Shown here: positions 23,727 through 62,924 of the stretch, in pieces
How positions within the stretch are numbered: the stretch's first letter is position 1
Layout: each line of letters starts with the position of its first letter
DNA from: a plasmid
Reading direction: 5' to 3' (one strand)
Length of the DNA stretch: 64,000 nt
Sequence record: CP132319.1
Translations under genes and position numbers: made by a program
Notes under the pieces: model-generated
What the model was told of the DNA's origin: nothing
The model's database searches: none
What the model saw: only the letters and a program-made list of their open reading frames with translations

Positions 23727-24461
23727 CCGCAGCGATACCCGCTTCTCAAGCTCGGCCGCCTGTTCCTTGCGCTCGCTGTAGCGGTCGGTGAGATAGGCCG
23801 AAGCATCGCGCGTGAGAATGGTGAACTTCACCAGTTCTTCGCAGACGTCCACGACCCGGTCGTAATAGGACGAGGGCTTCATCCGGCCGTCGGCGTCGAA
23901 TTCCTGATAGGCCTTGGCGACGGAGGACTGGTTGGGGATGGTGATCATCCGCATCCAGCGGCCGAGAATGCGCATCTGGTTCACTGCATTGAAGGACTGG
24001 CTACCGCCCGACACCTCCATAACGGCAAGCGTTTTGCCCTGCGTCGGCCGGACCGATCCGACCGAGAGCGGAATCCAGTCGATCTGGGACTTCATTATCC
24101 CGGTCATCGCGCCGTGGCGTTCCGGGCTCACCCAGACCTGCCCTTCCGACCATTGCGAAAGATCGCGCAATTCTTGCACCTTCGGATGGCTCGCCGGCGC
24201 TTCGTCAGGGAGCGGCAGGCCCTTCGGGTCAAAGATACGAACCTCGCATCCAAGGCGTTCGAGCAGCCGGCGGACCTCGAATGCGAGCAGGCGGCTATAC
24301 GACACCTCACGCAGCGAGCCGTAGAGGATCAGGATGCGCGGCTTATGCGTTGAGAACGCCGGACGCAGGGCATCGAGATCTGTCGAATATAGGTGATCGC
24401 CCTGCAGTGCTGGGAAAGTGTCAGGCAATGCGCTTTCCTTCCTGGTCGAGGATCTGTTCAC
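23718..24461 (-). CDS. arsH: NADPH-dependent FMN reductase ArsH
   Basis: 247 aa, flavodoxin-like ...[20 protein letters not shown]... ArsH signature, in the ars cluster. Confidence 0.85.
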
Positions 24462-24846
24462 CGTCCTCCTTGAAGAACGGTCCCCTGAAGGTGTCGGGCA
24501 GGATGTCGAGCACCGCCTCGGACGGACGGGCGAGCCGGGTGCCGAGCGGTGTCACGACGAAGGGGCGATTGATCAGGATCGGCGTTGCGATCATCGCGTC
24601 GAGCAACTGCTCGTCAGTCAGGTCTGGGTTGTCCAGACCGAGTTCGGCATAAGGCGTGCCTTTCTCGCGAATGGCTTCCCGAACGTTCAAGCCAGCGTCC
24701 GCGATCATCGTCGCAAGCTGCTCGCGCGTCGGCGGGTGCTGCAAATACTCGATGACAACAGGTTTGATCCCGGCAGCGCGGATCAGCGCCAGCGTGTTGC
24801 GGGACGTCCCGCAGGCGGGGTTGTGATAGATGGTCGCGTCCATGGT
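24421..24846 (-). CDS. arsC: arsenate reductase ArsC (glutaredoxin-dependent family)
   Basis: [25 protein letters not shown] matches the E. coli ArsC N-terminal catalytic Cys motif. Start taken at the internal ATG of ORF 24421-25077. Confidence 0.85.
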
Positions 24847-25904
24847 CAGTGCCTTTCGGTGGCGGTGGTTCTGGAAACAGCGGGGGCGGCCTCGTACCAA
24901 TCTTTCGAGCGGTTCACGATCCACACGACCGAGAGCATGACCGGAACCTCGATGAGAACGCCAACGACGGTGGCGAGTGCTGCGCCGGACTGGAAGCCGA
25001 ACAGGCTGATGGCTGCGGCAACTGCAAGCTCGAAGAAATTGCTGGCGCCGATCAGGGCTGACGGGCCGGCAATGCAATGCCGCTCACCGGTCATCCGGTT
25101 GAGTAGATAAGCCAGCCCGGAGTTCAGATAGACTTGGATCAGGATCGGCACGGCGAGCAAGCCGATGACGGCTGGCTGGGCGATGATCTGTTCACCCTGA
25201 AAGGCGAAGAGCAGAACCAGCGTCGCAAGTAGCGCCACCAGTGAGATCGGCTGCAACCTTGCCAGCACGCCATCCAGTGCCCGGGCCTTACCGCCAACCG
25301 TGAGGCGGCGGCGGATGACCTGCGCGATAATGACGGGCACGACGATATAGAGGGCGACGGAAAGAACGAGCGTATCCCAAGGCACGGTGATCGCGGAGAG
25401 GCCGAGCAGCAAGCCAACGATCGGAGCAAATGCGACGACCATGATGGCATCGTTCAACGCGACCTGAGACAGCGTGAACAATGGCTCCCCGCGCGTCAGG
25501 TTGCTCCAGACGAACACCATAGCGGTGCAGGGAGCCGCGGCGAGAATGATCAGTCCGGCGATATAGGAGTCGATCTGGTCGGCAGGCAGGTATGGGCGGA
25601 ACAGCCAACCGATGAACAGCCAACCGAGGACGGCCATGGAGAACGGCTTGACGGCCCAGTTGATGAACAAGGTCACGCCGATACCGCGCCAGTAGGTGCC
25701 GACCTGCGCCAGAGACCGGAAATCGATCTTAAGCAGCATCGGAATGATCATCAGCCAGATCAGGATCGCGACGGGAATGTTCACCTTGGCGACCTCGGCC
25801 GCGCCGATGATCTGAAAGAGACCGGGCATGAGATGGCCGAGGGCGACACCGGCGATGATGCACAGGAACACCCAGATGGTCAGATAACGCTCGAACGTGG
25901 ACAT
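24846..25904 (-). CDS. acr3: arsenite efflux permease ACR3
   Basis: 352 aa, 10-TM, ACR3/ArsB-type N-terminus MSTFERYLTIWVFLCIIAGVALG. Confidence 0.9.
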   Translation of the reverse strand: MSTFERYLTIWVFLCIIAGVALGHLMPGLFQIIGAAEVAKVNIPVAILIWLMIIPMLLKIDFRSLAQVGTYWRGIGVTLFINWAVKPFSMAVLGWLFIGWLFRPYLPADQIDSYIAGLIILAAAPCTAMVFVWSNLTRGEPLFTLSQVALNDAIMVVAFAPIVGLLLGLSAITVPWDTLVLSVALYIVVPVIIAQVIRRRLTVGGKARALDGVLARLQPISLVALLATLVLLFAFQGEQIIAQPAVIGLLAVPILIQVYLNSGLAYLLNRMTGERHCIAGPSALIGASNFFELAVAAAISLFGFQSGAALATVVGVLIEVPVMLSVVWIVNRSKDWYEAAPAVSRTTATERH

Positions 25905-26431
25905 CAGGCGGACTTTCCTTGCGGCGACGTCGAACCTTCCATCGCACCGATCTGGCGAAGCTTGGTCTCAAGCGCCATGTGATCGAAGGATGCCAGCGGC
26001 AGGCTGACGAACGCCGCGATCCGGTTCTTGAGGAAACGCGCGGCCTGAGCGAAGGCGCGCTGGATCTCGATGTCCGAGCCAGCGACGGCGGCGGGGTCTT
26101 CGACACCCCAATGGGCGGTCATCGGATGGCCGATCCAGACCGGGCAGGCTTCGCCGGCGGCGCTGTCGCAGACGGTGAAGATGAAATCCATCTGCGGCGC
26201 GCCGGGCTCCGCGAACACATCCCAGCTCTTCGACGAGAAGCCCGTCGATGGATAGCCCAGCGCTTCCAGCTCCTTCAGGGCATGCGGATTGACTTCGCCC
26301 TTCGGCTGGCTGCCGGCGGAGAAGGCTTTGAATCGTCCGCCGCCCTCCTTGTTGAGAATGGATTCGGCGAGAATAGAACGAGCGGAATTGCCCGTGCAGA
26401 GGAACAGCACGTTGTAGGTCTTGTCGGTCAT
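25904..26431 (-). CDS. arsC2: arsenate reductase, LMW-PTP family (thioredoxin-coupled ArsC)
   Basis: CTGNSARS P-loop at the N-terminus, 175 aa. Confidence 0.85.
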   Translation of the reverse strand: MTDKTYNVLFLCTGNSARSILAESILNKEGGGRFKAFSAGSQPKGEVNPHALKELEALGYPSTGFSSKSWDVFAEPGAPQMDFIFTVCDSAAGEACPVWIGHPMTAHWGVEDPAAVAGSDIEIQRAFAQAARFLKNRIAAFVSLPLASFDHMALETKLRQIGAMEGSTSPQGKSA

Positions 26432-26446
26432 GGTCGTGGTCCGTGG

Positions 26447-26887
26447 TTAGGCCGGCGGCCGGGTGAGCCTCATGATGGTCGCCGACGATGGGCAGATGGA
26501 GGAAAGCTGACGGGTCGCCAACACGGCTGCGGGAACGCTGTCCCGCTGGAATTCAGAAAATCCGATGCGCGTGAAGAACGGCGCTGCACTCGTCGTGGCA
26601 AGGAAGACGTCGCCGGCCTGATCGAGACCCGCCACCGCCCGCTCGACCAAAACGCTTCCCAGTCCTTGCCCCCGATGATCGGGAAGCACGACGACCGAAC
26701 GGAGGAGAAAATCGTCGCCGCAGCGCTCAACACCGATGAAACCGACAGCCCTGCCGTCCGATGACTGCGCCCTGAAGAAGGTGCGACCATGATCCTCGAT
26801 GTCGTCGGTGGGCAGATGCGCTTCCGTCAAGGCTGCCTTGAGGCCAGCGTCGTTGCCCTCAATCTGCTCCAACCTGATCGCGCTCAT
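26447..26887 (-). CDS. GNAT N-acetyltransferase (ArsN-like, ars-cluster associated)
   Basis: Start at internal ATG MSAIRLEQIEG. Acetyl-CoA motif ...RGQGLGSVLVERAV.... Confidence 0.65.
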   Translation of the reverse strand: MSAIRLEQIEGNDAGLKAALTEAHLPTDDIEDHGRTFFRAQSSDGRAVGFIGVERCGDDFLLRSVVVLPDHRGQGLGSVLVERAVAGLDQAGDVFLATTSAAPFFTRIGFSEFQRDSVPAAVLATRQLSSICPSSATIMRLTRPPA

Positions 26888-27237
26888 AACACCTTCGCCT
26901 CCGGGGCGCAGCACGGCGTCAACTCGGCGATGAGCGGAGCGCAAAGCTCCGTCGATCCGCCGCAGCAGTCTTTGAGGAGGAACAGCGTCAGCTCGCGCAA
27001 GCCATTGAGGTCGGCCCGGTAGATGATCGATCTGCTCTGCCGCTCGCTCGTCACCAAGCCTGCCCGCGAAAGCGTTGCGAGATGCGCCGACATGGTGTTT
27101 TGCGGTACATCGATAAGGCGGGCGAGTTCGCCGGCCGGGATGCCATCGGGTTCGTGCCGCACCAGAAGCCGGAAGGTCTCCAGTCGCGTGGTCTGTGCCA
27201 AGGCGCCGAGCGCTGCGATTGCTGTGATATTATCCAT
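26884..27237 (-). CDS. arsR: ArsR/SmtB-family repressor
   Basis: 117 aa, HTH ...IPAGELARLIDVPQNTMSAHLATLSRAGLV..., C-terminal CC motifs. Confidence 0.8.
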   Translation of the reverse strand: MDNITAIAALGALAQTTRLETFRLLVRHEPDGIPAGELARLIDVPQNTMSAHLATLSRAGLVTSERQSRSIIYRADLNGLRELTLFLLKDCCGGSTELCAPLIAELTPCCAPEAKVL

Positions 27238-27416
27238 ATATCCAGAATATCGGATATGTTTTCGATGTCAAGACGAATCCGGGCCTCGACGTCCGGCGGA
27301 TAAAGGTCGAGAACGGCTGCTACGAGGTCTATGCGATCGATGCCAAGGGCGCCAAGGTCGAGACGATCTTCAATCCGCAGACCGGTGAACCGGTCGGCTC
27401 GGAAGGAGCGGAATGA
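27228..27416 (+). pseudogene. 5'-truncated PepSY-like small periplasmic protein fragment
   Basis: Open frame with no start codon: ...DVKTNPGLDVRRIKVENGCYEVYAIDAKGAKVETIFNPQTGEPV*. Begins exactly where arsR (start 27237) abuts. Confidence 0.3.
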
Positions 27417-27967
27417 TGGCGCCACTCTCCCGAACCAGCGGGGCGGGGGAAAGCGTCAAGGTGTGGGACCCGCTCGTGCGGGTCTTTCACTGGTCGCTTG
27501 TCTGCCTCTTCGTTTTTTCCTTCGTTACCGGCGACGAATGGAAGAAGGCTCATATCCTCTCCGGCTATGCCATCGCAGGGCTGATCGCCCTGCGCCTGGT
27601 CTGGGGGCTGCTCGGGCCGCATCACGCCCGCTTCGCCAACTTCCTCTATTCTCCTCCGACGATCCTAGCGTTCCTCCGTGACAGCCTCGCCTTCCGCGCC
27701 AAGCGGTATCTCGGCCACAATCCGGCGGGGGGCGCGATGGTCGTCCTGCTGCTCGTTGCGGTGTCCGGTATCGTGACCACCGGCTACATGATGACCACGG
27801 ATGCCTATTGGGGTGTCGGCTGCGTGGAGGATACGCATAAGCTCCTGGTCTATTCGACCATCGGGCTGATTGCCCTGCACATCGCCGGCGTCGTCTTCGC
27901 CAGCGTCGAGCACCGGGAAAACCTCGTGCGCGCCATGGTGACGGGAAGGAAGCGCCGCGAAGGTTGA
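27413..27967 (+). CDS. cytochrome b561 family protein
   Basis: 184 aa, 4 TM helices with conserved His (FHWSL... HILSGY... IALH). Confidence 0.7.
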   Translation: MMAPLSRTSGAGESVKVWDPLVRVFHWSLVCLFVFSFVTGDEWKKAHILSGYAIAGLIALRLVWGLLGPHHARFANFLYSPPTILAFLRDSLAFRAKRYLGHNPAGGAMVVLLLVAVSGIVTTGYMMTTDAYWGVGCVEDTHKLLVYSTIGLIALHIAGVVFASVEHRENLVRAMVTGRKRREG

Positions 27968-27985
27968 TGTGCGGCTGTCTATATG

Positions 27986-28016
27986 GCATGTATTTAGAAT
28001 TATTCTAAATACATGC
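27986..28016. promoter_or_regulatory. perfect 15-1-15 palindrome containing an Irr ICE-box (TTTAGAA-TTA-TTCTAAA)
   Basis: GCATGTATTTAGAATTATTCTAAATACATGC lies 49 bp upstream of the VIT-family gene. The core matches the Irr iron-control-element consensus TTTAGAA-N3-TTCTAAA. Confidence 0.6.
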
Positions 28017-28064
28017 CTGACGTCATAATGCAACCACAGTAGATCTGCTGAAATCGGAGATGTT

Positions 28065-28760
28065 ATGCGCGCCGTTCACAAGGAAAGCCACCTCATCGAA
28101 CGTATCGGCTGGCTCCGCGCGGCGGTGCTGGGCGCCAATGACGGGCTGATCTCGACGTCGAGCCTCATCGTCGGTGTCGCGGCGGCGACCGCGGCATCGC
28201 AGGAAATCCTCGTCGCCGGTGTCGCCGGTTTGGTGGCCGGCGCGATGTCGATGGCGGCGGGGGAATATGTCTCCGTCAGCTCGCAAGCCGATACGGAACA
28301 GGCCGACATGGCGCGCGAGCGCCACGAGCTGGCCACCCAGCCGGAGGCGGAGCTGGCCGAGCTTACCGCGATCTACGAGCAGCGTGGCGTCTCACCGGAT
28401 CTTGCCCGCCAGGTTGCCGAACAAATGATGGTGAAGGACGCCTTCGAAGCCCATGCACGGGACGAACTCGGCCTGTCGAGCCACGTAATGGCGCGGCCTG
28501 TCCAGGCGGCGCTGACATCGGCGGTGACCTTCGCGACGGGCGCGGCCCTGCCGCTGGCGGTCGCCCTGCTGGCGCCGTCGGGAACGGTCGTCTGGGCTGT
28601 GTCCGTTGCCTGTCTCATCGGGCTTGCCGTCCTCGGCGCGATCGGCGCGCGTGCCGGTGGTGCTGGCATCTGGAAGCCGACCGTCCGGGTCGTCTTCTGG
28701 GGCGCGGTCGCCATGGCGTCGACCGCAGCCATCGGCGCGCTTGTCGGCCGGGCGGTCTGA
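28065..28760 (+). CDS. VIT1/CCC1-family iron/manganese exporter
   Basis: 231 aa. GANDGLISTSSLIVG motif and C-terminal TM bundle typical of the VIT family. Confidence 0.8.
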   Translation: MRAVHKESHLIERIGWLRAAVLGANDGLISTSSLIVGVAAATAASQEILVAGVAGLVAGAMSMAAGEYVSVSSQADTEQADMARERHELATQPEAELAELTAIYEQRGVSPDLARQVAEQMMVKDAFEAHARDELGLSSHVMARPVQAALTSAVTFATGAALPLAVALLAPSGTVVWAVSVACLIGLAVLGAIGARAGGAGIWKPTVRVVFWGAVAMASTAAIGALVGRAV

Positions 28761-28762
28761 TC

Positions 28763-30742
28763 ATGAAACGCCTGTCGTTCGATACGCCCACGGTGATGTC
28801 GCTGCTGACGGTGCTGGGCATGGTCCTCGCCACGGCTGGAACCTGGCCGCCGGCCGAGGGGCTTGCCGTCCTGCGCTGGCCGGGGCTGGCGCTCGTCTAT
28901 CTCGCCGGCGGACTGCCGGCGACGGGGAGCGCGCTTCTGGCCCTGTGGCGGCAGCATGTCCTCGATATCGACCTCCTGATGGTGGTTGCCGCGGTTGCCG
29001 CGGCCGTCGTCGGAGCGCCGTTCGAAGGTGCGGTGCTACTGACGCTGTTCAGCGTGTCGAAAACGCTCGAGCATCAGGCGCTCGGCCGCGCGCGCCGCGC
29101 CGTCGAGGCGCTAATGGCGCTTCGTCCCGAAACGGCGTTCCGCAGGCAGGCCGATGGCTCGGTGCTGGAGGTTCCCGCAGCGGAGCTTGCCGTCGGGGAT
29201 GTCGTGATCCTGCGGCCCGGCGCCCGCGTGCCGGCCGATGGCGTCATCCTGCTGGGACGTGGTGGCATCGACGAGGCCAATATCACCGGCGAATCCATGC
29301 CCGTTTCCAAGGAGCCGGGCCAGCAGGTGTTCGAGGCCACCGTCAATCTGGACGGCATTCTGGAGGTGGAGGTCGCAAGAACGATCGGCGATAGCACGAT
29401 CGCCCGCATGATCCGGCTGGTCACGGAGGCCCAGGAGGCCAAGGCCCCCTCCGAGCGTTTCAGCGCCTGGTTCGGACAGCGTTATACCGTCGCGGTTCTC
29501 CTCGGCGCCGCTCTCGCCTTCGCCGTTTTCTATGGGGTCGGGCGCGATTGGGAGCAGGCGCTTTATCGGGCCGCGACGCTGCTGGTCGCCGCCAGCCCCT
29601 GCGCGATCGTCATATCGGTACCGGCGGCGATCCTGTCGGCGCTTTCGGCGGCCGCGCGCGGCGGCGTTCTGTTCAAGGGCGGCGGCGCGCTCGAAACGCT
29701 GGCCGCCGTCAATATCTTCGCCTTCGACAAGACCGGCACCCTCACCAACGGCCGGGCGGCCGTGACGCGGATCGTCGCGCTGGACGCGGACGAATGCGGC
29801 TTCCTGTCGTTGCTCGCCGGGCTCGAAGCCCATTCCGAGCATCATGTCGCGGCGGCCATCCGCCGGGAGGCGGCTGCACGTGGCATCGCGCCGGCGCATG
29901 TCGTGGATGTCAGCGCGCGCCCAAGCGCAGGGATCGTCGGGTCGGATGCGCTTGGTGTCCTCTGGGCCGGCAATCTTCATCTCGTTCGGGACATGGGGGC
30001 GTCGGTTGATCACGCCCGGCTTCGGGAACTGACCGACAGCGCCGAGACCGTCGTCTATCTGGGACGAGGACCGGCTGTCCTCGGCGCCGTCGGAGTGGCG
30101 GACGAGGCGAGGGCGAGCTCGGCCCCGGCGCTCGCCGCGCTGCGGGCCGGCGGCGTGCGCCGCATCGTCATGATGACCGGAGACCGCCGGCCGGTGGCCC
30201 TGCGGATTGGCGGGCAGCTCGGCCTTGCTCCCGACGAGATCCACGCCGAAATGCTGCCGCAAGACAAGGTGCGCCATGTGGGGGACCTGGCGAGCGGCGG
30301 CACGGTGGCCTTCGTCGGCGACGGCGTCAATGACGCGGCCGCTCTTGCCCGCGCCGATGTCGGCATCGCCATGGGCGCGGCCGGCTCGGATGTCGCCCTT
30401 CAGGCCGCCGATGTCGCCCTATTGTCGGAAGACATGAAGAAGCTGGCCGATGCGCAGCGTCTGGCACGACGGACCGCCGCGATCATCCGGCAGAACCTCG
30501 TCGTCGCGATCGGCGCCATGCTGGTGCTGGTAACGGGCGGGTTGTTCTTCGATCTGCCGCTGCCGCTGGCGGTGGTCGGACATGAAGGCGGGACCGTGCT
30601 CGTGGTCCTCAACGGCTTGCGGCTGTTGTCGGATCCGATCCGGCGGCCAGTGGACAGGGCCGCATCCGTCCGTGCGCTGGAGGACGGGTTGGCGACGTCG
30701 CCACCGGTTGCGGCCACGTCGCCGGCCGACACGCCGGTATAG
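28763..30742 (+). CDS. P1B-4-type heavy-metal P-type ATPase (Co/Fe/Ni exporter class), no N-terminal metal-binding domain
   Basis: 659 aa. SPC motif in TM6 (AASPCAIVIS), DKTGTLT phosphorylation site, GDGVNDAAAL, HEGGT in the last TM (P1B-4 signature). Confidence 0.85.
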   Translation: MKRLSFDTPTVMSLLTVLGMVLATAGTWPPAEGLAVLRWPGLALVYLAGGLPATGSALLALWRQHVLDIDLLMVVAAVAAAVVGAPFEGAVLLTLFSVSKTLEHQALGRARRAVEALMALRPETAFRRQADGSVLEVPAAELAVGDVVILRPGARVPADGVILLGRGGIDEANITGESMPVSKEPGQQVFEATVNLDGILEVEVARTIGDSTIARMIRLVTEAQEAKAPSERFSAWFGQRYTVAVLLGAALAFAVFYGVGRDWEQALYRAATLLVAASPCAIVISVPAAILSALSAAARGGVLFKGGGALETLAAVNIFAFDKTGTLTNGRAAVTRIVALDADECGFLSLLAGLEAHSEHHVAAAIRREAAARGIAPAHVVDVSARPSAGIVGSDALGVLWAGNLHLVRDMGASVDHARLRELTDSAETVVYLGRGPAVLGAVGVADEARASSAPALAALRAGGVRRIVMMTGDRRPVALRIGGQLGLAPDEIHAEMLPQDKVRHVGDLASGGTVAFVGDGVNDAAALARADVGIAMGAAGSDVALQAADVALLSEDMKKLADAQRLARRTAAIIRQNLVVAIGAMLVLVTGGLFFDLPLPLAVVGHEGGTVLVVLNGLRLLSDPIRRPVDRAASVRALEDGLATSPPVAATSPADTPV

Positions 30743-30763: not shown

Positions 30764-31489
30764 TCAACAGGACAGGAAGCGGGTGCGCGTGTTCTCTTCG
30801 AGAAGCAGACCCGTGATTCCGCCGAACACCCATTCCCGCAGGCGGCTGTGACCATAGGCGCCGGTGACGACGATATCGGCGTCGCTTTCGTCGACGAATT
30901 GCAGAAAGCCGATCGTTTCGTCGGCGCTTTTGATCATCTGCGGCCTGGCTTTTACATTGTGCCGGGCGAGATAGGAAACGATATCGGCGAGGCTCTGCCT
31001 CTCGGCCGGTGCGGGCTCCGGGGAAACGGAAACGACGGCGACGTCATAGGCGACCGATAGCAGGGGAATTGCATCGGCAATCGCGCGGCGGGCCTCACGG
31101 GTGTCCTTCCAGCCGATGACGATCTTTCTTGTCGCAATCGCGTCCCGGTCCCTCCCGACCACCAGCAGCGGCCGGCCGGCGCGCAGGACGATGGCCGCCG
31201 GGTCCGCGCGCTCTTCGGCCGCCATCAATACGAGATCGGCGATACGGGCGGCGGCCACGACCGCCTCGGTCGGCGCCATTGTTTCGCCGCGCCATTCCGC
31301 CTCGATCCTGTTTGCCGCCAGATGGAGGAACGCGGCGCGGGCCTCCTCCATGCGCTCTGCGAGCGTTTCGGCGGCGCAAAGCCCGACGAGCCGCGCGCCC
31401 GAGCGGGATGCCAAATCGATGGCGGCCTCCGTTATCGGCTCGAACGGCCGGTCGATATCGAGATTGACGAGAATGGATCGATAAACCAC
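30764..31489 (-). CDS. universal stress protein UspA (tandem USP domains)
   Basis: 241 aa with two USP repeats (..VVGRDRD.., ..VVTGAYGHSRLREWVFGGIT..). Confidence 0.8.
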   Translation of the reverse strand: MVYRSILVNLDIDRPFEPITEAAIDLASRSGARLVGLCAAETLAERMEEARAAFLHLAANRIEAEWRGETMAPTEAVVAAARIADLVLMAAEERADPAAIVLRAGRPLLVVGRDRDAIATRKIVIGWKDTREARRAIADAIPLLSVAYDVAVVSVSPEPAPAERQSLADIVSYLARHNVKARPQMIKSADETIGFLQFVDESDADIVVTGAYGHSRLREWVFGGITGLLLEENTRTRFLSC

Positions 31490-32480: not shown

Positions 32481-32737
32481 TGAAGGCCTCACCGACCTAA
32501 TCGGTGGCCCGCCAGATGCCGACAATAGCAAAGATCAGCTCCGCGATCTTGCGAAATAGCCACTAATCCTTGCGTTTTTTTTGCCTTTCTCGGCCGGTTC
32601 GGTGAACTCAGTTATGCGGACCCCCTTTGTTTTTCCCGCGGCGTTTTTGGCGAGGTCCGCCTTGCGAAGCCTTCAATTCTACCTCAGCGCGGCGGACCTC
32701 GATAGCAAACCATCGCAATTTTGGCGCCCGCGAGCCA

Positions 32738-33487
32738 CTAATGCCGCCACACCTTCACTGCGGAGATCAGCAAGATGATCGCTAGGGCTGGCAGCAGTAC
32801 CGCGTTCGGAACGATCCCGAGAAGCAAGCCGCCGACAAAGGTGCCGACAATCGAACCGGCAGCCATGATCAAGAGAAAGGCCTTGTTGCGGCTGATAACA
32901 GAGAAGCTCCGATCACGGCTATAGCGAGTGAACCCGACCAGCATGGTTGGCAGGCTTATGGCAAGCGAAAGGCTGCCACCGAGCTTGATGTCCGCTCCAA
33001 AGAGGAGAACCAGTGTCGGGATCAGTAGTTCGCCGCCCGCTACTCCCAGCAGTGATGCGACGATGCCTATGATGAAGCCGGCGAAAACACCCGCGATGAG
33101 CTGGCTGACGCCGGTCAACATCGGTTGGCCGGCTGTCGCGTCGTGCCCGAACACCAGGACGATCGCGATTGCCACGAGCATGATGGCGATAACCTTGTAG
33201 AGCGTCTCCGACCGCAGCTTTGTCGCCCAGCCTGCGCCGAACCAGGCGCCGATCAGGCTTCCGGCGAGAAGATTGAGGACGATCGGCCAATTGTCGGCGA
33301 CGGCGCTGAACGGAACGGTTCCTGCCCGAAAAGGAAGCGCGGTCGCAACGACCACGAGGCTCATCGCTTTGTTGAGGATGACAGCCTCAAGCGCTGCAAA
33401 GTTGAAGAGCCCGATCAGGATTGGGAGGCGGAACTCCGCGCCGCCGAGCCCGATGAGTCCTCCAAGAGCGCCAATAATCGCGCCAAT
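32738..33487 (-). CDS. TauE/SafE (DUF81) family sulfite/sulfonate exporter; no recognisable start codon (TAA immediately upstream)
   Basis: Frame is open from 33487 (..FTIGAIIGALGGLIGLGGAEFRLPIL..), which matches the TauE N-terminus, but is preceded directly by TAA. The annotated ATG at 33364 would remove the first TM helix. Confidence 0.6.
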   Translation of the reverse strand: MGAIIGALGGLIGLGGAEFRLPILIGLFNFAALEAVILNKAMSLVVVATALPFRAGTVPFSAVADNWPIVLNLLAGSLIGAWFGAGWATKLRSETLYKVIAIMLVAIAIVLVFGHDATAGQPMLTGVSQLIAGVFAGFIIGIVASLLGVAGGELLIPTLVLLFGADIKLGGSLSLAISLPTMLVGFTRYSRDRSFSVISRNKAFLLIMAAGSIVGTFVGGLLLGIVPNAVLLPALAIILLISAVKVWRH

Positions 33488-33690
33488 TGTGAATTAGCCC
33501 CGAAAGGCTCTCGTGTCGCCCCCCAATTTGAACGGACAGTTGGCATAAGCAGAAAGGCATAGCGTCTGAACGCTGCAACCTGCGTATGTCGGAGCGTTGG
33601 ACCCAAGGTAGCACCTTGTCTGTAGCGCCCATTATTCCCGGCGTCGTGAGTGGAACGCCACGCACAGAGGCACCGTGGCGGACATTGTGA

Positions 33691-34485
33691 TCAAGCCATC
33701 GTCGGCCCCCAGCTTCGGTAGAAGATGTAGCCAGCGACGACGAAGATGAGCGCCGCGAACAGACGGTTGAGTGTGTTCTTGTAGCCACTCAGTCGAGTTG
33801 CCAGCCTCATTCCGAGGATGCCGCCTGCGATGCCTCCACCGATGAACTCCGTTGCAAGCCACCAGTCCACCAGCCCGGATGCCGCATAGTTCAGCGCGGT
33901 CGCCAGTCCGAAGGCGCCGACGGACAGAAGCGACGTGCCGATCGCATTGATCATCGGCATGCCGGTTGCCAGCATCAGACCTGGCACAATCAGGAACCCC
34001 CCGCCGATCCCGAAGAAGCCTGACGCCGCTCCGGCGGCCAGCGCCACGGCTGCTGTGACAAAGCACATCTTAAGGTCGATCGGCCGGCTTTCGACCGACG
34101 GCGGCTTCCTGGGCTTAAGCATCAGGGCGCCGACGACGACCATCAGAATGCCGAACAGGAGAATCAGTCGGTCTCCGTCCATCGCCTTTCCGAGGCTGGA
34201 GCCTGCTAGCGCGCCGAGGACGCCGAGCGCTGCAAACACCGCGGCGCACCGCCACCAGACGTGTCCCTTGATTGCGTGGCTCGTAAAGTTCGCGAAAGCG
34301 TTGACCGAAACTGCAAGCGCACCGGTTCCAATCGCGACATGAGGCTGCGCGACTCCGACGACGTAGAGGAGGAGCGGGGTCGCCAGGATCGAGCCGCCGC
34401 CGCCGAGAAGGCCGAGCATGAAGCCGACGATCCCGCCGGAGCCGACAGCCGCTAGAACGGAACCAATCATGTTCTTCTGCTCCAC
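33691..34485 (-). CDS. TauE/SafE family membrane transporter
   Basis: 264 aa, two DUF81 repeats with GxGGG motifs. Confidence 0.75.
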   Translation of the reverse strand: MEQKNMIGSVLAAVGSGGIVGFMLGLLGGGGSILATPLLLYVVGVAQPHVAIGTGALAVSVNAFANFTSHAIKGHVWWRCAAVFAALGVLGALAGSSLGKAMDGDRLILLFGILMVVVGALMLKPRKPPSVESRPIDLKMCFVTAAVALAAGAASGFFGIGGGFLIVPGLMLATGMPMINAIGTSLLSVGAFGLATALNYAASGLVDWWLATEFIGGGIAGGILGMRLATRLSGYKNTLNRLFAALIFVVAGYIFYRSWGPTMA

Positions 34486-34898
34486 GCTCTGTCGTAGACT
34501 GCCATACCGATTAACATGGCGGCGACGAACAACACCGTTTGTGGGATGCCAACCGATAGGGAGGCGACTGCAGGGCCGGGACAGAAGCCGCCGATCCCCC
34601 AGCCAATTCCGAACAAGGCCGATCCGATGAGCAGCGGCGCGTCGATCTTCCGGGTCGTGGGCACATGGAAACTGTCGTCGAAGGTGGGATGGCGCATCTT
34701 CTTCATCACCTGAACGCCGATGAAGGCGACAGCGACGGCGCCGCCGAGGACGAAGGCAAGACTTGGATCCCAGTTGCCGAAGACGTCAAGGAAGCCTCGG
34801 ACGCGAACCGGATTGAGCATGCCCGAAAGCGACAGGCCGAAGCCGAAGACGATGCCGGATAAGAGGGCGGCGCCGAACTGATAGATGGTCCTGTTCAT
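34467..34898 (-). CDS. YeeE/YedE-family sulfur-compound transporter half-protein
   Basis: 143 aa, 4 [15 protein letters not shown] motif. Confidence 0.75.
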
Positions 34899-35305
34899 AG
34901 TCCGAAACCTCGTAGAATGGCGACCGCGACCACGCCCGCGGACAGGAATGTGGCAACGGCCACCATCGATCGCGGCGACAGGCGGGCAAGCCCGAGCACG
35001 CCGTGTCCGCTGGTGCAGCCGGATCCCATCCGCGAGCCGAAGCCGACCAGCAGTCCGGCCACGATGATCAGCGGCCAGGCTGTGATGATCTCAACAGTCG
35101 GCCAGCCACCAATGACCAGCAGGTAGACGAGCGGCCCGAGCAGGAGGCCAAGAACGAACGCAAGATTGGTGGTCAGGCCGACGCCTTGAGCCAGACGCCC
35201 GACAATGCCGCTGATGCCGGCAATCCGGCCGTTCAAGAGCAGGAGCATGACCGCGGAGGCGCCGATCAACATGCCGCCGCTCAGCGACTGGAAATAGATG
35301 CTCAT
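34895..35305 (-). CDS. YeeE/YedE-family sulfur-compound transporter half-protein
   Basis: 136 aa, GSGCTSGHG motif. Confidence 0.75.
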
Positions 35306-35649
35306 GTCTCTTCCTTTACGCAGAAGATGTCATAGAGGGCGGAGACCAGCTGTGCGGCTTTCTCCTCGGTCAGGCGGTAGAAGATCTGCTTTCCCTCCCG
35401 CCGGGTTTCGACGATGCCAGAGCTCCGCAGCACGGTCAGATGCTGCGAAAGATGCGGCTGATGGACGTCAAGCTTTTCCTCGAGTTCGCCGACCGAGAAC
35501 TCGCCCTCGACCAGCGTGCATACGATCATCAGACGCGCCTGGTGGGACAACGTCTTCAGAAGATCGGCGACGGCTCCGGCTCGGCCCGCCATCTCGGCGG
35601 GAGAGAGCCGCGCCTTCATCATTTTCTCTGAGTCGGTGCTCATTCCCAT
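35302..35649 (-). CDS. bigR: ArsR/SmtB-family persulfide-sensing repressor BigR
   Basis: 115 aa, HTH ...HQARLMIVCTLVEGEFSVGELEEKLDVHQPHLSQHL.... Sits between blh and the YeeE/YedE/TauE genes, as in the Xylella/Agrobacterium BigR operon. Confidence 0.7.
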   Translation of the reverse strand: MGMSTDSEKMMKARLSPAEMAGRAGAVADLLKTLSHQARLMIVCTLVEGEFSVGELEEKLDVHQPHLSQHLTVLRSSGIVETRREGKQIFYRLTEEKAAQLVSALYDIFCVKEET

Positions 35650-36938
35650 GCGGCTCCCTGCAATGCGTCGAGCGGAAACTTCAGGTAGCGCTTGCCGTTC
35701 GCTTCCGGCTCCGGCAGTCGCCCACCGCGGATGTTCACCTGCAGGGCATGCAGGATGAGCTTCGGCATGGGCAGCGTCTTGTCACGCTTCGTCCGGAGCG
35801 TCACGAACTGTTCTTCTGTCACGCCAGCAAGATGCTCGTTGAATTTCTTCTGCTCGGCCACGGTGCTTTCCCAGCGCGGAGCACGGCCGTCCGGCTGGTA
35901 GTCGTGTCCGGTGAAGATGCGTGTCTCGTCCGGGAGAGCGAGGATATCCTGAATCGACTTCCATAGGATGCGGACATCACCGCCGGGGAAGTCGGCGCGC
36001 GCCGTGCCGCTGTCGGGCATAAACAGCGTGTCATGAACGAAGGCCGCGTCGCCGACCACATAGGTGATCGAGGCAAGTGTATGCCCTGGCGAGAACATCA
36101 CCTTGGTGTCGATGGAGCCGACCTTGAACGTCTCACCATGTGCGAAAAGCCGGTCCCATTGCGAGCCGTCGATCGCTAGCTCAGGCCAGTTGTAGATCTC
36201 CTTCCAGAGCTTCTGAACATCGACAACGCGTTCGCCGATCGCGGTTCTGCCACCGGTCTTCTCCTTCAAATACTGGGCCGCGGAGAAATGGTCGGCATGT
36301 GGGTGGGTATCGAGGATCCACTCCACCGTCAGGCCATTCTCCCGGACATAGTCGAGGATCGCGTCGGCGTTTATGGTGCCAGTGGCTCCGGCCTTCTCGT
36401 CGAAATCGAGCACTGGATCGATGATGGCGCACTTGCCCGTCGCTGGATCGGACACAACATACTGGACGCTCCAGGTGCGCCTGTCGAAGAAGCCCATCAC
36501 CTTCGGGCGACGCGTTGCGTTCTGCTCGAGCCATGCCGCAGCTGCACTAGTGTCGAAGCCGTTGGCTCGTCCGAATTCGACGACGTCCTCAGCAGCCATC
36601 CGGCCGTCGAGGACCTCCCCGATCAGGTACAGGCTGAGAGATCTCGTGCCGGACTTGCAGTGTGCGAAAACCGGTCCGCCGGAGTCGTCGAGCGCCTTCT
36701 GGAACGACCGCACGTCCGCTTCGGTGATCGTGCCGAGCGTGACAGGAACGAAAGAGTAGGACAGGCCGCAATGCTCGGCCGCCTGTTTTTCGGCGTCCGT
36801 TCCCGGCTGGAGAGCGTCTTCGGCGTCCGGTCGGTTGTTGATCAGCGTCGTGAACCCCAAGCTGCGCAGGGACCGAATGACGTCGACGCTCGGCTGCGGC
36901 GAGACCGATAGCTTCTCAGAAATCTTGATGGCAGACAT
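35640..36938 (-). CDS. blh: Blh: DUF442 phosphatase-like domain fused to an MBL-fold persulfide dioxygenase
   Basis: N-terminal ...FAHCKSGTRS... (DUF442 CX5R-like). C-terminal ...LDTHPHADHFSAA... metallo-beta-lactamase/ETHE1 motif. Start set at MSAIKI, preceded by GGAG. Confidence 0.8.
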   Translation of the reverse strand: MSAIKISEKLSVSPQPSVDVIRSLRSLGFTTLINNRPDAEDALQPGTDAEKQAAEHCGLSYSFVPVTLGTITEADVRSFQKALDDSGGPVFAHCKSGTRSLSLYLIGEVLDGRMAAEDVVEFGRANGFDTSAAAAWLEQNATRRPKVMGFFDRRTWSVQYVVSDPATGKCAIIDPVLDFDEKAGATGTINADAILDYVRENGLTVEWILDTHPHADHFSAAQYLKEKTGGRTAIGERVVDVQKLWKEIYNWPELAIDGSQWDRLFAHGETFKVGSIDTKVMFSPGHTLASITYVVGDAAFVHDTLFMPDSGTARADFPGGDVRILWKSIQDILALPDETRIFTGHDYQPDGRAPRWESTVAEQKKFNEHLAGVTEEQFVTLRTKRDKTLPMPKLILHALQVNIRGGRLPEPEANGKRYLKFPLDALQGAAWE

Positions 36939-36962
36939 GCCTGACTCCATGTTTCGATACAT

Positions 36963-36987
36963 TATACAATATAATATAATATATAAT
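36963..36987. promoter_or_regulatory. AT-rich repeat (ATATAAT x3) promoter/operator of the blh-bigR operon
   Basis: TATACAATATAATATAATATATAAT immediately upstream of blh. BigR operators are AT-rich palindromes overlapping the -10 region. Confidence 0.4.
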
Positions 36988-37252
36988 GAACAAATTACAA
37001 CGGGGTTCGATGACCAGATTGTCGCAGCGGGTTGTCGAGAATGTGCACCGGCCTACACCTGACGGCGTTGTGAGTTGCTCCGACTACTATGAGGCCTGCA
37101 GCACGCTGAAAATGCTGTCATTGTTTCGCGAGCGATATAAGCCGCGGTTCCATAATAGAACTTATGCGATATGTTATAACATAACAAGGTGCAGATAGTG
37201 ATAAAGTGCAGCTTGCAGTGGGCAAGAGCTAATTGTCAGTCGAAGGGGTGAC

Positions 37253-37948
37253 TCATGAGAGAGACCGCGGGACCATCATTTCAATTAGTTCGCGCCCCGC
37301 AGGCACTACTGTGATATAGACGGCGGTAAATGGCATAGGTGCTTTATCGGCCCAGAAGATTCCGGCGATTTTCGTTCGCCGGAGGGCCGAAAAGGCGATG
37401 GCGCCATTCGCCTCAAGATCCGCCAGCATAGTGCCCATTTCGTGGTTATACGAGAGTTTATCGGAGAAAGAGATGTCGTCCCGAATATCCTGCATGTCCT
37501 GCAGGTAGTCGAAGAGGGCCGCGGCGATCTCCTTTGCATCAGTGCTCAAGCCGTCATCCATATGGAGGACCAGGCCGGTGGAGACGTCCGTGAGGCGGCC
37601 GAGAGCGTCGCCATTCGCGACACGTTCCGCAGGAAGCTTCATATGGTCCGGGAACTGCTTTTCCATGGCTTCCTGGCTTGTGCCATTCAGATCGCCAAGG
37701 ATCTTGTAGACCGAAGAGACAAACTCCGGGCTGTCGAATATGTCGGAGTTGTCGTAGCCGAGACCGCGTGCCAACGCCCTGCGGGTAGTAATGCTGGCCG
37801 GCTTTCCAGCTTCAACTCGCTGGATGGTGCGCACATCGATCCCGGAACTCGCCGCAAGGGCTTCCTGTGACCAGTTAGATGTTTCTCGGATGCACTTGAC
37901 CCAGAATCCGAGCACTTTGGGCTCGAGCAGGGGTTGGGCGGTGTTCAT
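37253..37948 (-). CDS. XRE-HTH domain protein with 170-aa uncharacterised C-terminal domain
   Basis: Start at MNTAQPLL. HTH_XRE ...WSQEALAASSGIDVRTIQRVEAG.... The C-domain has no recognised family. Confidence 0.55.
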   Translation of the reverse strand: MNTAQPLLEPKVLGFWVKCIRETSNWSQEALAASSGIDVRTIQRVEAGKPASITTRRALARGLGYDNSDIFDSPEFVSSVYKILGDLNGTSQEAMEKQFPDHMKLPAERVANGDALGRLTDVSTGLVLHMDDGLSTDAKEIAAALFDYLQDMQDIRDDISFSDKLSYNHEMGTMLADLEANGAIAFSALRRTKIAGIFWADKAPMPFTAVYITVVPAGRELIEMMVPRSLS

Positions 37949-38048
37949 GAGCAATGCCTTTCGCTGTTGATATGACACCACCATATCGTCGTGCAGCCAA
38001 GTCCGACACGACAGCATCCCGACACTTTGCCGACAGATCGCCGCCTGG

Positions 38049-38630: not shown

Positions 38631-38820
38631 ATACGGTTGACCTTATAGCAGGTCGACAGGGGACCAGATCAAGATTCTAAGGAGCTCCGCCCCTTGCGCC
38701 GGTAAGAGGGCCGAGCCTCGCTGCGCTGCGGCCGCACCAACCCAATTGCCCTTGCTACCCCCGGACCTCGCCGGTCAGGCAGGGTTGCAGGGGACCTGCA
38801 CCTGCCTCTCCATTCAGGAA

Positions 38821-62907: not shown

Positions 62908-62924
62908 ATTGCAGGGTACAGGCT

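What the first reader, a model, noticed from the sequence alone, without database searches (positions are those of the whole stretch)
27986..30742. Perfect 31-bp palindrome with an Irr ICE box upstream of a VIT-family exporter and a P1B-4 metal ATPase
GCATGTATTTAGAAT-T-ATTCTAAATACATGC contains TTTAGAA-N3-TTCTAAA. That is the iron-control element bound by Irr in Bradyrhizobium/Agrobacterium, where Irr represses the iron exporter mbfA. Here it precedes a VIT-family gene and a co-transcribed P1B-4 (SPC/HEGGT) ATPase. This implies Irr-controlled iron/cobalt export carried on a mobile replicon.
Basis: partly seen in the sequence, partly recalled or inferred. Interest (0 to 1): 0.55.

Follow-up and report, generated by a model that had tools for sequence, protein, structure and literature searches.

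The report
Irr iron operator before plasmid exporter operon
A perfect palindrome on a Shinella plasmid contains the same 17-bp iron-control element that switches off the iron exporter gene mbfA in related bacteria, and it most likely puts a plasmid-borne two-gene metal-export operon under the host's iron regulator Irr; this is a solid but unsurprising extension of a known regulatory system.

Summary
Its core (27993-28009) is an exact ICE, TTTAGAA-TTA-TTCTAAA, and is the only copy in the window. It lies 64 bp upstream of a VIT1-type gene. A P1B-4 ATPase with SPC and HEGGT(X)5N motifs and no HMA domain follows after a 2-nt gap.

The Irr reading passed every in-silico test I could run.
- All 17 bases match the mutationally validated S. 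meliloti mbfA ICE and the ICE before Shinella's own mbfA.
- Shinella encodes IrrA.
- ICE half-sites are conserved upstream of VIT homologues in six unrelated gene contexts, as single or tandem sites. The spacer and the outer palindrome arms vary.
- About 150 other VIT loci, and more distant ATPase homologues, lack an ICE.
- The full palindrome is not a dispersed repeat.

The conserved functional unit is therefore the 17-21-bp ICE. The long palindrome is specific to this plasmid lineage.

The ICE begins 20-23 nt after a TTGAnn hexamer in 10 of 13 loci. That geometry favours repression at low iron and derepression at high iron.

Irr binding, the transcription start and the transported metal are all untested. 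I rate it a new member of a known kind, of moderate interest.

The parts
27985..28017 (.). Perfect 33-bp palindrome (16-nt arms around T28001). The arms beyond the ICE core are specific to this plasmid lineage.
   Evidence: The full sequence is found only in NZ_CP132308.1 and the 99.9%-identical NZ_CP084755.1. The outer arms are the least conserved columns of alignment A2.
27993..28009 (.). ICE / Irr box, TTTAGAA-TTA-TTCTAAA: the predicted operator for the Irr dimer. With its TA flanks it forms a 21-bp palindrome (27991-28011).
   Evidence: It is the only match in the window. It is identical to the validated S. meliloti mbfA ICE (PMC7540006) and to the Shinella mbfA ICE. The half-sites are invariant in 5 of 6 type-a loci while the N3 spacer varies.
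27964..27969 (+). TTGATG, a candidate -35 hexamer that overlaps the cyt b561 stop codon. This is an inference only.
   Evidence: A TTGAnn hexamer ends 20-23 nt before the promoter-proximal ICE in 10 of 13 ICE-bearing loci from unrelated contexts. S. meliloti mbfA has TTGACG 19 nt before its ICE. The simple consensus scan found no + strand promoter.
28056..28059 (+). GGAG ribosome-binding site, 5 nt before the VIT ATG.
   Evidence: Read from the sequence. It is invariant in alignment A2.
28065..28760 (+). VIT1/CCC1-family transporter, 231 aa, with a glutamate-rich cytoplasmic loop and no ferritin/rubrerythrin domain. It is not MbfA.
   Evidence: PF01988 matched over the full length, E 2e-68. 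EgVIT1 (6IU3) E 1.9e-21, with the TM1 Asp-Gly and the TM2 Met aligned (PMC7714665). It has no significant pairwise similarity to Shinella MbfA, E 0.07.
28763..30742 (+). P1B-4-type heavy-metal P-type ATPase, 659 aa, starting 2 nt after the VIT stop codon. It is probably in one operon with VIT and translationally coupled to it.
   Evidence: E1-E2_ATPase and Hydrolase domains, no HMA domain. The best PDB hit is sCoaT, 7QBZ/7QC0, E 2e-105, with SPC and HEG(G/S)T aligned (PMC8880997). The 2-nt gap is identical in every VIT-ATPase locus examined.
27413..27967 (+). Cytochrome b561 gene immediately upstream. It is a conserved neighbour in type-a loci and has no ICE of its own.
   Evidence: PF01292. 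The same PepSY_2 - cyt b561 - ICE - VIT order is seen in L174-L178 and L183, with a single ICE per locus.

Best explanation
The 17-bp core of the palindrome is an iron-control element (ICE). It is the operator for the host-encoded, heme-responsive, Fur-family regulator Irr, and it controls the promoter of a two-gene efflux operon: a VIT1-type transporter followed by a P1B-4 ATPase.

Proposed mechanism:
- At low iron, apo-Irr binds the ICE, which overlaps or directly follows the -10 region and transcription start, and blocks transcription.
- When iron and therefore heme rise, heme binds Irr's HXH motif and Irr loses DNA binding. The operon is then derepressed and both transporters remove excess cytoplasmic Fe2+, and probably Co2+.
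- The operator is the same sequence that controls the chromosomal exporter gene mbfA. The plasmid cassette therefore plugs into the iron regulon of any recipient that has Irr.

What is shown:
- The sequence is identical to a validated ICE.
- The site is conserved across unrelated gene contexts.
- The genus encodes IrrA.
- The transporter classes are as stated.

What is inferred:
- Irr binds here.
- The promoter position, and hence that regulation is repression.
- Iron is the substrate.
- The two genes are co-transcribed.
For: 1. There is an exact ICE at 27993-28009, the only one in the window. The consensus is 5'-TTTAGAA-N3-TTCTAAA-3' (PMC1698941).
2. The identical 17-mer, preceded by the same TA, lies 13 bp before S. 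meliloti mbfA (Rubrerythrin + VIT1 domains). That puts TTCTAA at -19 to -14, the very bases whose mutation abolished Irr/iron repression (PMC7540006). The same 17-mer lies 14 nt before Shinella sp. PSBB067 mbfA.
3. That Shinella replicon also carries the 80% variant of the operon and encodes IrrA. IrrA scores 231.6 bits against NF045678 (cutoff 150) and contains an HHH motif.
4. Footprint: in six type-a sequences the half-sites are invariant, apart from 2 changes in L183. Two of the three spacer positions vary (TTA, TAG, TGG, TAA), and the outer arms are the most variable columns.
5. ICEs with 0-2 mismatches occur upstream of VIT in six unrelated contexts: after cyt b561, with or without the ATPase; after PepSY; after ABC-hypothetical genes; L184; Bosea; and a Beijerinckiaceae MAG.
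6. Specificity: about 150 other VIT loci have a best match of 4 or more mismatches in the 400 bp upstream. No locus labelled outside Hyphomicrobiales has an ICE.
7. Geometry: the proximal ICE starts 20-23 nt after TTGAnn in 10 of 13 loci. In the tandem-ICE loci the two sites are 46-49 bp apart and bracket a TTGACC. At known Irr-repressed promoters the ICE overlaps the core promoter or the transcription start (PMC7540006, PMC3413700).
8. Both products belong to families with documented Fe2+ export or transport (PMC7762939, PMC7714665).
Against: - There is no experimental evidence for this locus: no Irr binding, no mapped transcription start, and no iron-dependent expression data.
- The candidate -10 in the window is weak (CATGTA or ATGTAT), and the consensus promoter scan found nothing on the + strand. 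The repression geometry therefore rests on comparative spacing alone.
- Several VIT homologues 85-89% identical in Irr-containing hosts lack an ICE: Bradyrhizobium L006, Afipia L008, L185-L187. The ATPase homologues of Paracoccus and Rhizobium Khangiran2 also lack one. Irr control is therefore not intrinsic to these transporters.
- P1B-4 pumps have a broad metal range (Co, Zn, Cd, Fe; PMC8880997), and the operon sits in a metal and metalloid resistance region, so iron need not be the main substrate.
- irr was confirmed in another Shinella strain, not in strain 1760953 itself.
Confidence: 0.72

Rival explanations
1. The ICE is a genuine Irr site, but Irr activates the operon at low iron. The pump and VIT protein would then expel Co2+ or Zn2+, which mis-metallate iron enzymes when iron is scarce, rather than exporting iron.
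For: - Irr acts as activator or repressor depending on where the ICE lies (PMC1698941, PMC7762939).
- In Brucella, Irr binds an ICE next to the P-type ATPase gene zntA, and zntA expression is lower in the irr mutant (PMC10374146).
- P1B-4 pumps were first characterised as Co/Zn/Cd exporters (PMC8880997, PMC10800456).
- The transcription start here is unmapped, and the -10 candidates are weak.
Against: - The proximal ICE lies downstream of the conserved TTGAnn hexamer, not upstream of it. In the tandem loci the promoter is bracketed by two ICEs.
- The operator is identical to that of mbfA, which is repressed (PMC7540006).
- VIT-family proteins are Fe2+ transporters in the characterised cases (PMC7714665).
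Confidence: 0.12
2. The palindrome is the operator of a different, unidentified regulator, for example a plasmid-encoded one or another Fur-family protein. On this view the match to the ICE is coincidental or reflects shared recognition.
For: - The perfect symmetry extends 7-8 bp beyond the ICE on each side, further than a single Irr dimer is known to need.
- Many related loci have two-component systems nearby.
Against: - The extension is not conserved in the 90-96%-identical relatives, whereas the ICE half-sites are.
- No regulator gene travels consistently with the site across the six contexts.
- All 17 bases match a mutationally validated Irr operator (PMC7540006).
- There is no RirA-type TGA-N9-TCA box in the intergenic region (read).
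Confidence: 0.06
3. The palindrome acts at the RNA or DNA structure level. It could be a terminator or stabilising hairpin for the upstream cytochrome b561 transcript, or a cruciform or recombination site.
For: The region folds into a 15-bp hairpin. The minimum free energy of the 111-nt stretch is -38.2 kcal/mol, z = -4.4 against shuffles. The hairpin lies 18 nt after the cyt b561 stop codon.
Against: - No U-tract follows the hairpin (the next bases are CCUGACGUCAUAAUGC), and the terminator scan did not report it.
- The long stem is absent in relatives with the same gene order.
- Only spurious sub-threshold Rfam matches were found.
- The full sequence is not a repeat found elsewhere.
Confidence: 0.03
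4. The ICE is a non-functional relic or a chance match with no regulatory effect on this plasmid.
For: - Some relatives carry degraded sites: L183 has 2 mismatches, and L179/L180 keep only a half-site.
- Close VIT homologues manage without any ICE.
Against: - A perfect 14-of-14 match was never seen in 2263 background windows or in 20000 composition-matched random 400-mers.
- The site is maintained at a fixed distance (63-65 bp) across lineages whose flanks have diverged.
Confidence: 0.04

Closest known systems
mbfA ICE / Irr repression in S. meliloti, R. leguminosarum, B. japonicum and A. tumefaciens
   Same: - The 17-bp operator is identical to the S. meliloti and Shinella mbfA ICEs.
- It lies close to the promoter of a gene for a VIT-domain membrane exporter.
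- The host is a Rhizobiaceae member that encodes IrrA.
- The expected logic is the same: repression at low iron and derepression by heme.
   Different: - The regulated VIT protein is a VIT1-type with a glutamate-rich loop. It is not the rubrerythrin-VIT fusion MbfA, and pairwise similarity is E 0.07.
- A P1B-4 ATPase is coupled to it.
- The ICE centre is 64 bp from the ATG rather than about 21-23 bp.
- The cassette is plasmid-borne and regulated in trans.
- Relatives have a tandem-ICE arrangement around the promoter.
P1B-4 iron-efflux ATPases PfeT (B. subtilis), FrvA, CtpD and PmtA
   Same: - The same ATPase subclass by signature motifs (SPC, HEGGT).
- No classical N-terminal metal-binding domain.
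- A proposed role in removing excess Fe2+.
   Different: - Where the regulator of those pumps is known, it is Fur and/or PerR (PMC7762939). Here the predicted regulator is Irr acting through an ICE.
- Here the pump is paired with a VIT transporter in one operon.
- Its metal specificity is untested.
Brucella Irr-bound ICE at the zntA (P-type ATPase) / hemN intergenic region
   Same: It is an ICE next to a P1B-type ATPase gene in a Hyphomicrobiales member. Irr binding there was shown by DAP-seq and EMSA (PMC10374146).
   Different: - zntA is a P1B-2 Zn/Cd pump that shares its intergenic region with hemN.
- Its expression falls in the irr mutant, an apparently positive effect.
- No VIT partner is present.
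sCoaT of Sulfitobacter sp. (PDB 7QBZ/7QC0)
   Same: - It is the closest solved structure (E 2e-105).
- The aligned features are the GG kink before M1, SPC in M4 and HEGxT in M6.
   Different: sCoaT was characterised in vitro as a Zn/Cd/Co pump. Nothing about its regulation or any VIT partner was taken from that work.

Membership tests
ICE (Irr box) cis-element | [quoted passage not shown] | tested here: met
   14 of 14 specified bases match at 27993-28009.
ICE (Irr box) cis-element | Lies in the promoter region of a gene linked to iron homeostasis | tested here: met
   It is in the 97-bp intergenic region, centred 64 bp before a VIT1-family gene. The exact promoter is not mapped.
ICE (Irr box) cis-element | The host lineage encodes Irr | tested here: met
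   Shinella sp. PSBB067 IrrA scores 231.6 bits against NF045678, cutoff 150. Strain 1760953 itself could not be checked.
ICE (Irr box) cis-element | The site is conserved at orthologous loci while its flanks diverge | tested here: met
   Alignment A2. Six independent contexts carry sites with 0-2 mismatches.
ICE (Irr box) cis-element | Same sequence as an experimentally validated ICE | tested here: met
   All 17 bp match the S. meliloti mbfA ICE (mutagenesis in PMC7540006).
ICE (Irr box) cis-element | Bound by Irr, and confers Irr- and iron-dependent transcription | not testable with these tools
   This needs EMSA or ChIP, and expression assays in wild type and an irr mutant.
P1B-4 P-type ATPase | SPC motif in TM4 | tested here: met
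   AASPCAIV aligns with sCoaT AASPCAL (PMC8880997).
P1B-4 P-type ATPase | HEGGT(X)5N / HEGxT motif in TM6 | tested here: met
   HEGGTVLVVLN aligns with sCoaT HEGSTLVVVAN (PMC10800456).
P1B-4 P-type ATPase | No classical ferredoxin-fold N-terminal metal-binding domain | tested here: met
   Pfam finds only E1-E2_ATPase and Hydrolase, with no HMA domain. The protein is 659 aa.
P1B-4 P-type ATPase | Functionally important Met in TM1 | tested here: inconclusive
   A Met in DLLMVVAA aligns with sCoaT DFLMLVAA. I could not confirm that this is the residue meant in PMC10800456.
P1B-4 P-type ATPase | Transports Co2+/Fe2+/Zn2+ outward | not testable with these tools
   This needs transport or metal-sensitivity assays.
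VIT1/CCC1 transporter | Full-length PF01988 domain with the conserved TM1 Asp-Gly and TM2 Met, and a Glu-rich cytoplasmic loop | tested here: met
   PF01988 covers residues 17-224, E 2e-68. In the alignment to EgVIT1 6IU3, NDG pairs with SDG and MSM with ISM, and the loop is Glu-rich. EgVIT1 Glu72 is Gly here (PMC7714665).
MbfA (membrane-bound ferritin exporter) | N-terminal ferritin-like/rubrerythrin domain (PF02915) fused to a VIT domain | tested here: not met
   The window protein has only PF01988. Genuine MbfA proteins of S. meliloti and Shinella have both domains. Pairwise E is 0.07.
Intrinsic terminator | GC-rich hairpin followed by a U-tract | tested here: not met
   The stem is 30% GC and no T-run follows. 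The terminator scan did not report it.
Dispersed repeat / IS terminal inverted repeat | Multiple copies at unrelated loci | tested here: not met
   There is a single copy in the window. The full sequence occurs only at the same locus in two near-identical plasmids among 72,556 records.

The most novel reading that the evidence does not exclude
Irr may not repress this operon. It may instead activate it under iron limitation. The mobile VIT + P1B-4 cassette would then be a low-iron defence that expels Co2+ or Zn2+ before they mis-metallate iron enzymes. That would be an iron-regulator-driven, horizontally transferable anti-mismetallation system.

A milder version is much more likely, about 0.6. 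In that version this is the first P1B-4 pump under heme/Irr control rather than Fur/PerR control, carried on conjugative plasmids together with a copy of the host's mbfA operator.
Probability: 0.12. Interest if true: 0.6.

Novelty: new member of a known kind. Interest (0 to 1): 0.4.

Why it matters
Irr/ICE control of the exporter MbfA is textbook for rhizobia. For P1B-4 iron pumps, the regulators known so far are Fur and PerR (PMC7762939). If this prediction holds, it has three consequences.

- It adds a second, ATP-driven iron-efflux route, paired with a ferritin-less VIT protein, to the Irr regulon.
- It shows that the route moves between Shinella, Agrobacterium, Ensifer, Pannonibacter, Bosea and other Hyphomicrobiales on plasmids.
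- It shows how a mobile cassette can be regulated correctly on arrival: it carries the same operator as a core chromosomal gene.

The tandem-ICE promoters in relatives give a simple system for studying cooperative Irr repression. None of this overturns current understanding. It extends a known regulon and yields a reporter-ready promoter.

Tried and rejected
- Riboswitch or other RNA element in the leader: an Rfam E-value search of 27300-28900 gave only spurious sub-threshold hits to the hairpin (K10_TLS, mir-287).
- Terminator: not reported by the scan, and no U-tract follows.
- Sigma-70 promoter scan: nothing on the + strand, and only a weak minus-strand hit inside the palindrome. The promoter position was therefore inferred from comparative spacing.
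- RirA IRO box (TGA-N9-TCA): none in the intergenic region, read by eye.
- Hypothesis that the ICE travels with the ATPase: rejected. Loci with cyt b561-VIT and no ATPase have a perfect ICE, while ATPase homologues of 65-78% identity in Paracoccus, Qingshengfaniella and Rhizobium Khangiran2, and the Paenochrobactrum VIT-ATPase pair, have none.
- Hypothesis that all close VIT homologues in Irr hosts carry an ICE: rejected (L006, L008, L185-L187).
- The metagenome scan returned mostly 60-73% relatives and only one close one, L094. Close relatives were then obtained through the look-up of encoding contigs.
- Rudolph 2006 (PMC1347296) and Sangwan 2008 (PMC2493276) are not held. ICE-promoter geometry was taken from PMC7540006 and PMC3413700 instead.
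- One literature query was too broad to be useful.
- NCBIfam gave only generic P1B models for the ATPase and nothing above cutoff for the VIT protein.
The Shinella hit was validated independently.
Full report
**1. Observation**

Extending outward from the centre, T28001, shows that the perfect palindrome is 33 bp: GGCATGTATTTAGAAT-T-ATTCTAAATACATGCC, at 27985-28017. It is the longest perfect palindrome in the window; the next is a 25-bp GC-rich one at 63045-63069.

The region is AT-rich. The palindrome is 30% GC and the intergenic region 39% GC, against 61% for the window.

The core TTTAGAA-TTA-TTCTAAA (27993-28009) is the only match to TTTAGAANNNTTCTAAA in 64 kb, even with three mismatches allowed.

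The background is clean:
- No perfect match occurred in 2263 400-bp windows from unrelated fetched loci.
- No perfect match occurred in 20000 random 400-mers of the same AT-rich composition.

**2. Genes around the palindrome**

| Coordinates | Strand | Gene | Evidence |
|---|---|---|---|
| 27413-27967 | + | cytochrome b561 (PF01292) | |
| 27968-28064 | | 97-bp intergenic region holding the palindrome | |
| 28065-28760 | + | VIT1-family protein, 231 aa (PF01988, E 2e-68) | |
| 28763-30742 | + | P-type ATPase, 659 aa, starting 2 nt after the VIT stop | |
| 30764-31489 | - | universal stress protein, convergent | |

An ars cluster (arsR, arsN2, arsC, acr3, arsC) lies upstream on the minus strand.

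The window is 100% identical to Shinella sumterensis strain 1760953 plasmid unnamed6, NZ_CP132308.1, 119 kb. That plasmid has repABC, a relaxase with MobC, VirB2-B11 and a coupling protein. It therefore looks conjugative, although PLSDB types it as non-mobilizable.

**3. The transporters**

The ATPase has the following features:
- Its closest solved structure is sCoaT (7QBZ/7QC0, E 2e-105), the reference P1B-4 structure (PMC8880997).
- AASPCAIV aligns with the SPC motif of M4.
- HEGGTVLVVLN aligns with HEGxT of M6 and fits HEGGT(X)5N (PMC10800456).
- Pfam finds no HMA domain.

These features meet the sequence definition of P1B-4.

The VIT protein aligns end to end with plant EgVIT1 (6IU3, E 1.9e-21). 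It keeps the TM1 Asp-Gly and the TM2 Met, which are described as nearly universal, and it has a glutamate-rich cytoplasmic loop (PMC7714665). It has no rubrerythrin domain and is not detectably similar to Shinella MbfA in a pairwise comparison, E 0.07. It is therefore a different branch of the family from the known Irr target MbfA.

The 2-nt gap between VIT and the ATPase is the same in every VIT-ATPase locus I examined. This points to one operon with translational coupling, which is an inference.

**4. Is the core an Irr operator?**

The published ICE consensus is 5'-TTTAGAA-N3-TTCTAAA-3', and mbfA is a direct, conserved Irr target (PMC1698941).

A short-query search of the plasmid collection gave three relevant results:
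- The full palindrome is found only at this locus, in NZ_CP132308.1 and in the 99.9%-identical NZ_CP084755.1. It is not a dispersed repeat.
- An exact TATTTAGAATTATTCTAAA is present in S. meliloti.
- An exact TTTAGAATTATTCTAAATA is present in Shinella sp. PSBB067.

In S. meliloti the site ends 13 bp before a 327-aa Rubrerythrin + VIT1 protein, which is MbfA. That puts TTCTAA at -19 to -14. Mutating exactly those bases abolished repression at low iron, and the reporter was also derepressed in an irrA mutant (PMC7540006).

In Shinella the same 17-mer lies 14 nt before its own mbfA.

The same Shinella replicon carries the 80% variant of the VIT-ATPase operon. It also encodes IrrA, which scores 231.6 bits against NF045678 (cutoff 150) and has an HHH motif at the position of the heme-binding HXH (PMC7762939).

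The window's site is therefore identical, base for base, to a functionally validated operator, and the genus has the regulator.

**5. Comparative footprint**

I collected VIT loci from four sources:
- 80 species-representative genomes
- 80 metagenome contigs
- plasmid records
- contigs encoding named close relatives

ICEs with 0-2 mismatches occur within 160 bp upstream of VIT in six unrelated contexts.

| Type | Context | Loci | ICE |
|---|---|---|---|
| a | cyt b561 - ICE - VIT - ATPase | window, S. zoogloeoides Teo12 (L002), L094, L183 | perfect, centred 63-65 bp before the ATG; L183 has 2 mismatches |
| a' | the same without the ATPase | L174-L178 | perfect |
| b | ABC - PepSY - ICE - VIT - ATPase | Shinella HZN7, A. 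pusense, the other plasmid of strain 1760953, Ensifer adhaerens | 1 mismatch |
| c | ABC - hypothetical - two ICEs - VIT - ATPase | a Hyphomicrobiales genome, Pannonibacter | 1 and 2 mismatches |
| d | L184 | metagenome contig | two ICEs |
| e | Bosea | L189 | two ICEs |
| f | Beijerinckiaceae MAG | L007 | one perfect ICE |

In the alignment of six type-a intergenic regions:
- the half-sites are invariant, apart from 2 changes in L183;
- two of the three spacer positions vary (TTA, TAG, TGG, TAA);
- the columns matching the outer arms of the window's palindrome are the most variable in the region.

This is the pattern expected of a dimer-binding site with a spacer that is not contacted. It shows that the conserved unit is the ICE (17 bp, or 21 bp with its TA flanks), not the 33-bp palindrome.

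Specificity is also good:
- In about 150 other VIT loci the best match in the 400 bp upstream has 4 or more mismatches.
- No locus labelled as Sphingomonadales, Caulobacterales, Gammaproteobacteria, Planctomycetota, Verrucomicrobiota or Acidobacteriota has an ICE. This agrees with the reported restriction of Irr/ICE to Rhizobiales, Rhodobacterales and a few other alphaproteobacteria (PMC1698941).

Membership of the regulon is not universal, however. The following lack an ICE:
- VIT homologues 85-89% identical in Bradyrhizobium (L006), Afipia (L008), L185/L186 and R. mesoamericanum (L187);
- the Paenochrobactrum VIT-ATPase pair (L045);
- ATPase homologues of 65-78% identity in Paracoccus, Qingshengfaniella and Rhizobium Khangiran2.

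The ICE tracks the VIT promoter, not the ATPase.

**6. Mechanism and sign of regulation**

The proximal ICE begins 20-23 nt after a TTGAnn hexamer in 10 of 13 loci. The hexamer is TTGATG in type a and TTGACC in types c to e.

In the tandem loci the distal ICE ends 3-8 nt before that hexamer, and the two ICE centres are 46-49 bp apart. If the hexamer is the -35, the proximal ICE covers the end of the -10 and the transcription start, and the tandem form brackets the whole core promoter.

S. meliloti mbfA has TTGACG, a 17-nt spacer, then TATTTA running into the ICE. Its ICE was described as overlapping the core promoter (PMC7540006). In R. sphaeroides the mbfA 5' end maps inside the Irr box (PMC3413700).

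This geometry favours repression at low iron, with derepression when heme-bound Irr leaves the DNA (PMC7762939). The step is inferred, for two reasons:
- The -10 candidates in the window are weak (CATGTA or ATGTAT). An alternative CTATAT at 27979-27984 has no good -35.
- The consensus scan found no + strand promoter.

**7. Rivals**

- **Activation by Irr at low iron, to export Co or Zn.** This is the main alternative. In Brucella, Irr binds next to zntA, and zntA falls in the irr mutant (PMC10374146). P1B-4 pumps also have a broad metal range (PMC8880997). The position of the ICE downstream of the -35-like element argues against it.
- **A different regulator recognising the long palindrome.** This is unlikely because the extension is not conserved.
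- **A terminator or RNA hairpin.** This is unlikely. The stem is strong, but it has no U-tract, is not reported by the scan and is absent in relatives.
- **A dispersed repeat.** This is excluded within the plasmid collection.
- **A riboswitch.** This is excluded by Rfam.

**8. The long palindrome itself**

The left arm, GGCATGTA, resembles the left flanks of relatives: GGCACCA, GGCAATTA and GGCTATTG. The right arm, TACATGCC, is its exact complement and differs from the relatives' right flanks: TAAATAGCC, TAAGTAGCC and TATATCGTC.

A template-switch correction of an imperfect palindrome could have produced this. That is speculation from my own knowledge of quasipalindrome mutagenesis, and I did not test it. 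Nothing indicates that the extension has a function.

**9. Novelty**

In the held literature I found no report of Irr/ICE control of a P1B-4 ATPase or of a ferritin-less VIT protein. A 2020 review states that where the regulator of P1B-4 iron exporters is known it is Fur and/or PerR, and that MbfA is under Irr (PMC7762939).

The finding is therefore a new, well-supported predicted member of a known regulon, carried on plasmids. The tandem-operator variant in relatives is a further point of interest. It is not a new kind of system.

**10. Verdict**

| Question | Answer |
|---|---|
| Observation | confirmed; the palindrome is 33 bp rather than 31 |
| Confidence that this is a functional Irr operator that represses a metal-efflux operon at low iron | about 0.72 |
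| Interest | 0.4 |

Noticed in passing
L181 2840-2905; L188 2340-2405; L184 2347-2409; L189 2353-2417: Relatives of the operon have two ICE-like sites 46-49 bp apart that bracket a TTGACC hexamer. This arrangement sandwiches the promoter and suggests cooperative Irr binding. I did not find it described in the papers I read.
   Followed up: partly
window 63045-63069: There is a perfect 25-bp GC-rich palindrome, TGGAGGGGGTGGACCACCCCCTCCA. By coordinate conversion it falls inside the annotated relaxase gene (record position about 80181).
   Followed up: no
window 1-23900 and 54000-64000 (record NZ_CP132308.1): PLSDB/MOB-suite types the plasmid as non-mobilizable. The annotation nevertheless lists a relaxase, MobC, VirB2-B11 and a type IV coupling protein as well as repABC, so it looks conjugative.
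   Followed up: partly
L086 (NZ_CP084755.1): A 99.9%-identical segment sits on a repABC-type plasmid (the same rep_cluster_497) attributed to the betaproteobacterium 'Roseateles sp. XES5'. The record is flagged UNVERIFIED_ORG, so the organism label is probably wrong.
   Followed up: partly
L192 (NZ_CP132305.1) versus window; L003 and H7 (Shinella sp. HZN7): Strain 1760953 carries two paralogous ICE-VIT-ATPase operons on two plasmids, about 80% identical at the DNA level and with different upstream genes. Shinella sp. HZN7 also has two copies on two plasmids.
   Followed up: partly
L174-L178, L183, L195, L181/L182, L185/L186; window 27238-27412: There is a recurring neighbourhood around these VIT genes: small PepSY and PepSY_2 proteins, cytochrome b561, and an OmpR-type response regulator with a PhoQ-like histidine kinase. 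In the window an ars operon abuts cyt b561 where relatives have PepSY_2. The role of this module is unknown.
   Followed up: no
L006 3200-3500 (Bradyrhizobium japonicum in8p8): An 89%-identical VIT gene is preceded by a separate gene whose C-terminus looks rubrerythrin- or ferritin-like, a 'split MbfA'-like arrangement. No ICE lies within the 7.7-kb locus.
   Followed up: no
L005 (Ensifer adhaerens NER9): This copy looks decayed. The start of the VIT gene is altered and only 47% of the ATPase aligns, yet a 1-mismatch ICE is retained.
   Followed up: no
window 28018-28025: The 8-bp palindrome TGACGTCA lies directly after the long palindrome. It is conserved in Teo12 and L094 but not in L174, L176 or L183.
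   Followed up: no
L193 (CP090106.1): This 3.7-Mb S. meliloti record is labelled 'plasmid pSymB' but carries efp, irr and mbfA. It is evidently the chromosome.
   Followed up: no
L030 2578; L032 805; L138 561: ICE-like sites with 1-2 mismatches lie far from the VIT start in three other loci (Methylobacterium, Pseudochelatococcus and a metagenome contig). They may belong to neighbouring genes or be chance matches.
   Followed up: no
window about 24000-27240 and 32700-38800; record 1-2316: The operon sits in a detoxification region. It has two ars clusters (acr3/arsC/arsN2/arsR, and arsK/arsR) and a BigR-Blh-YeeE-TauE sulfide/sulfite module.
   Followed up: no
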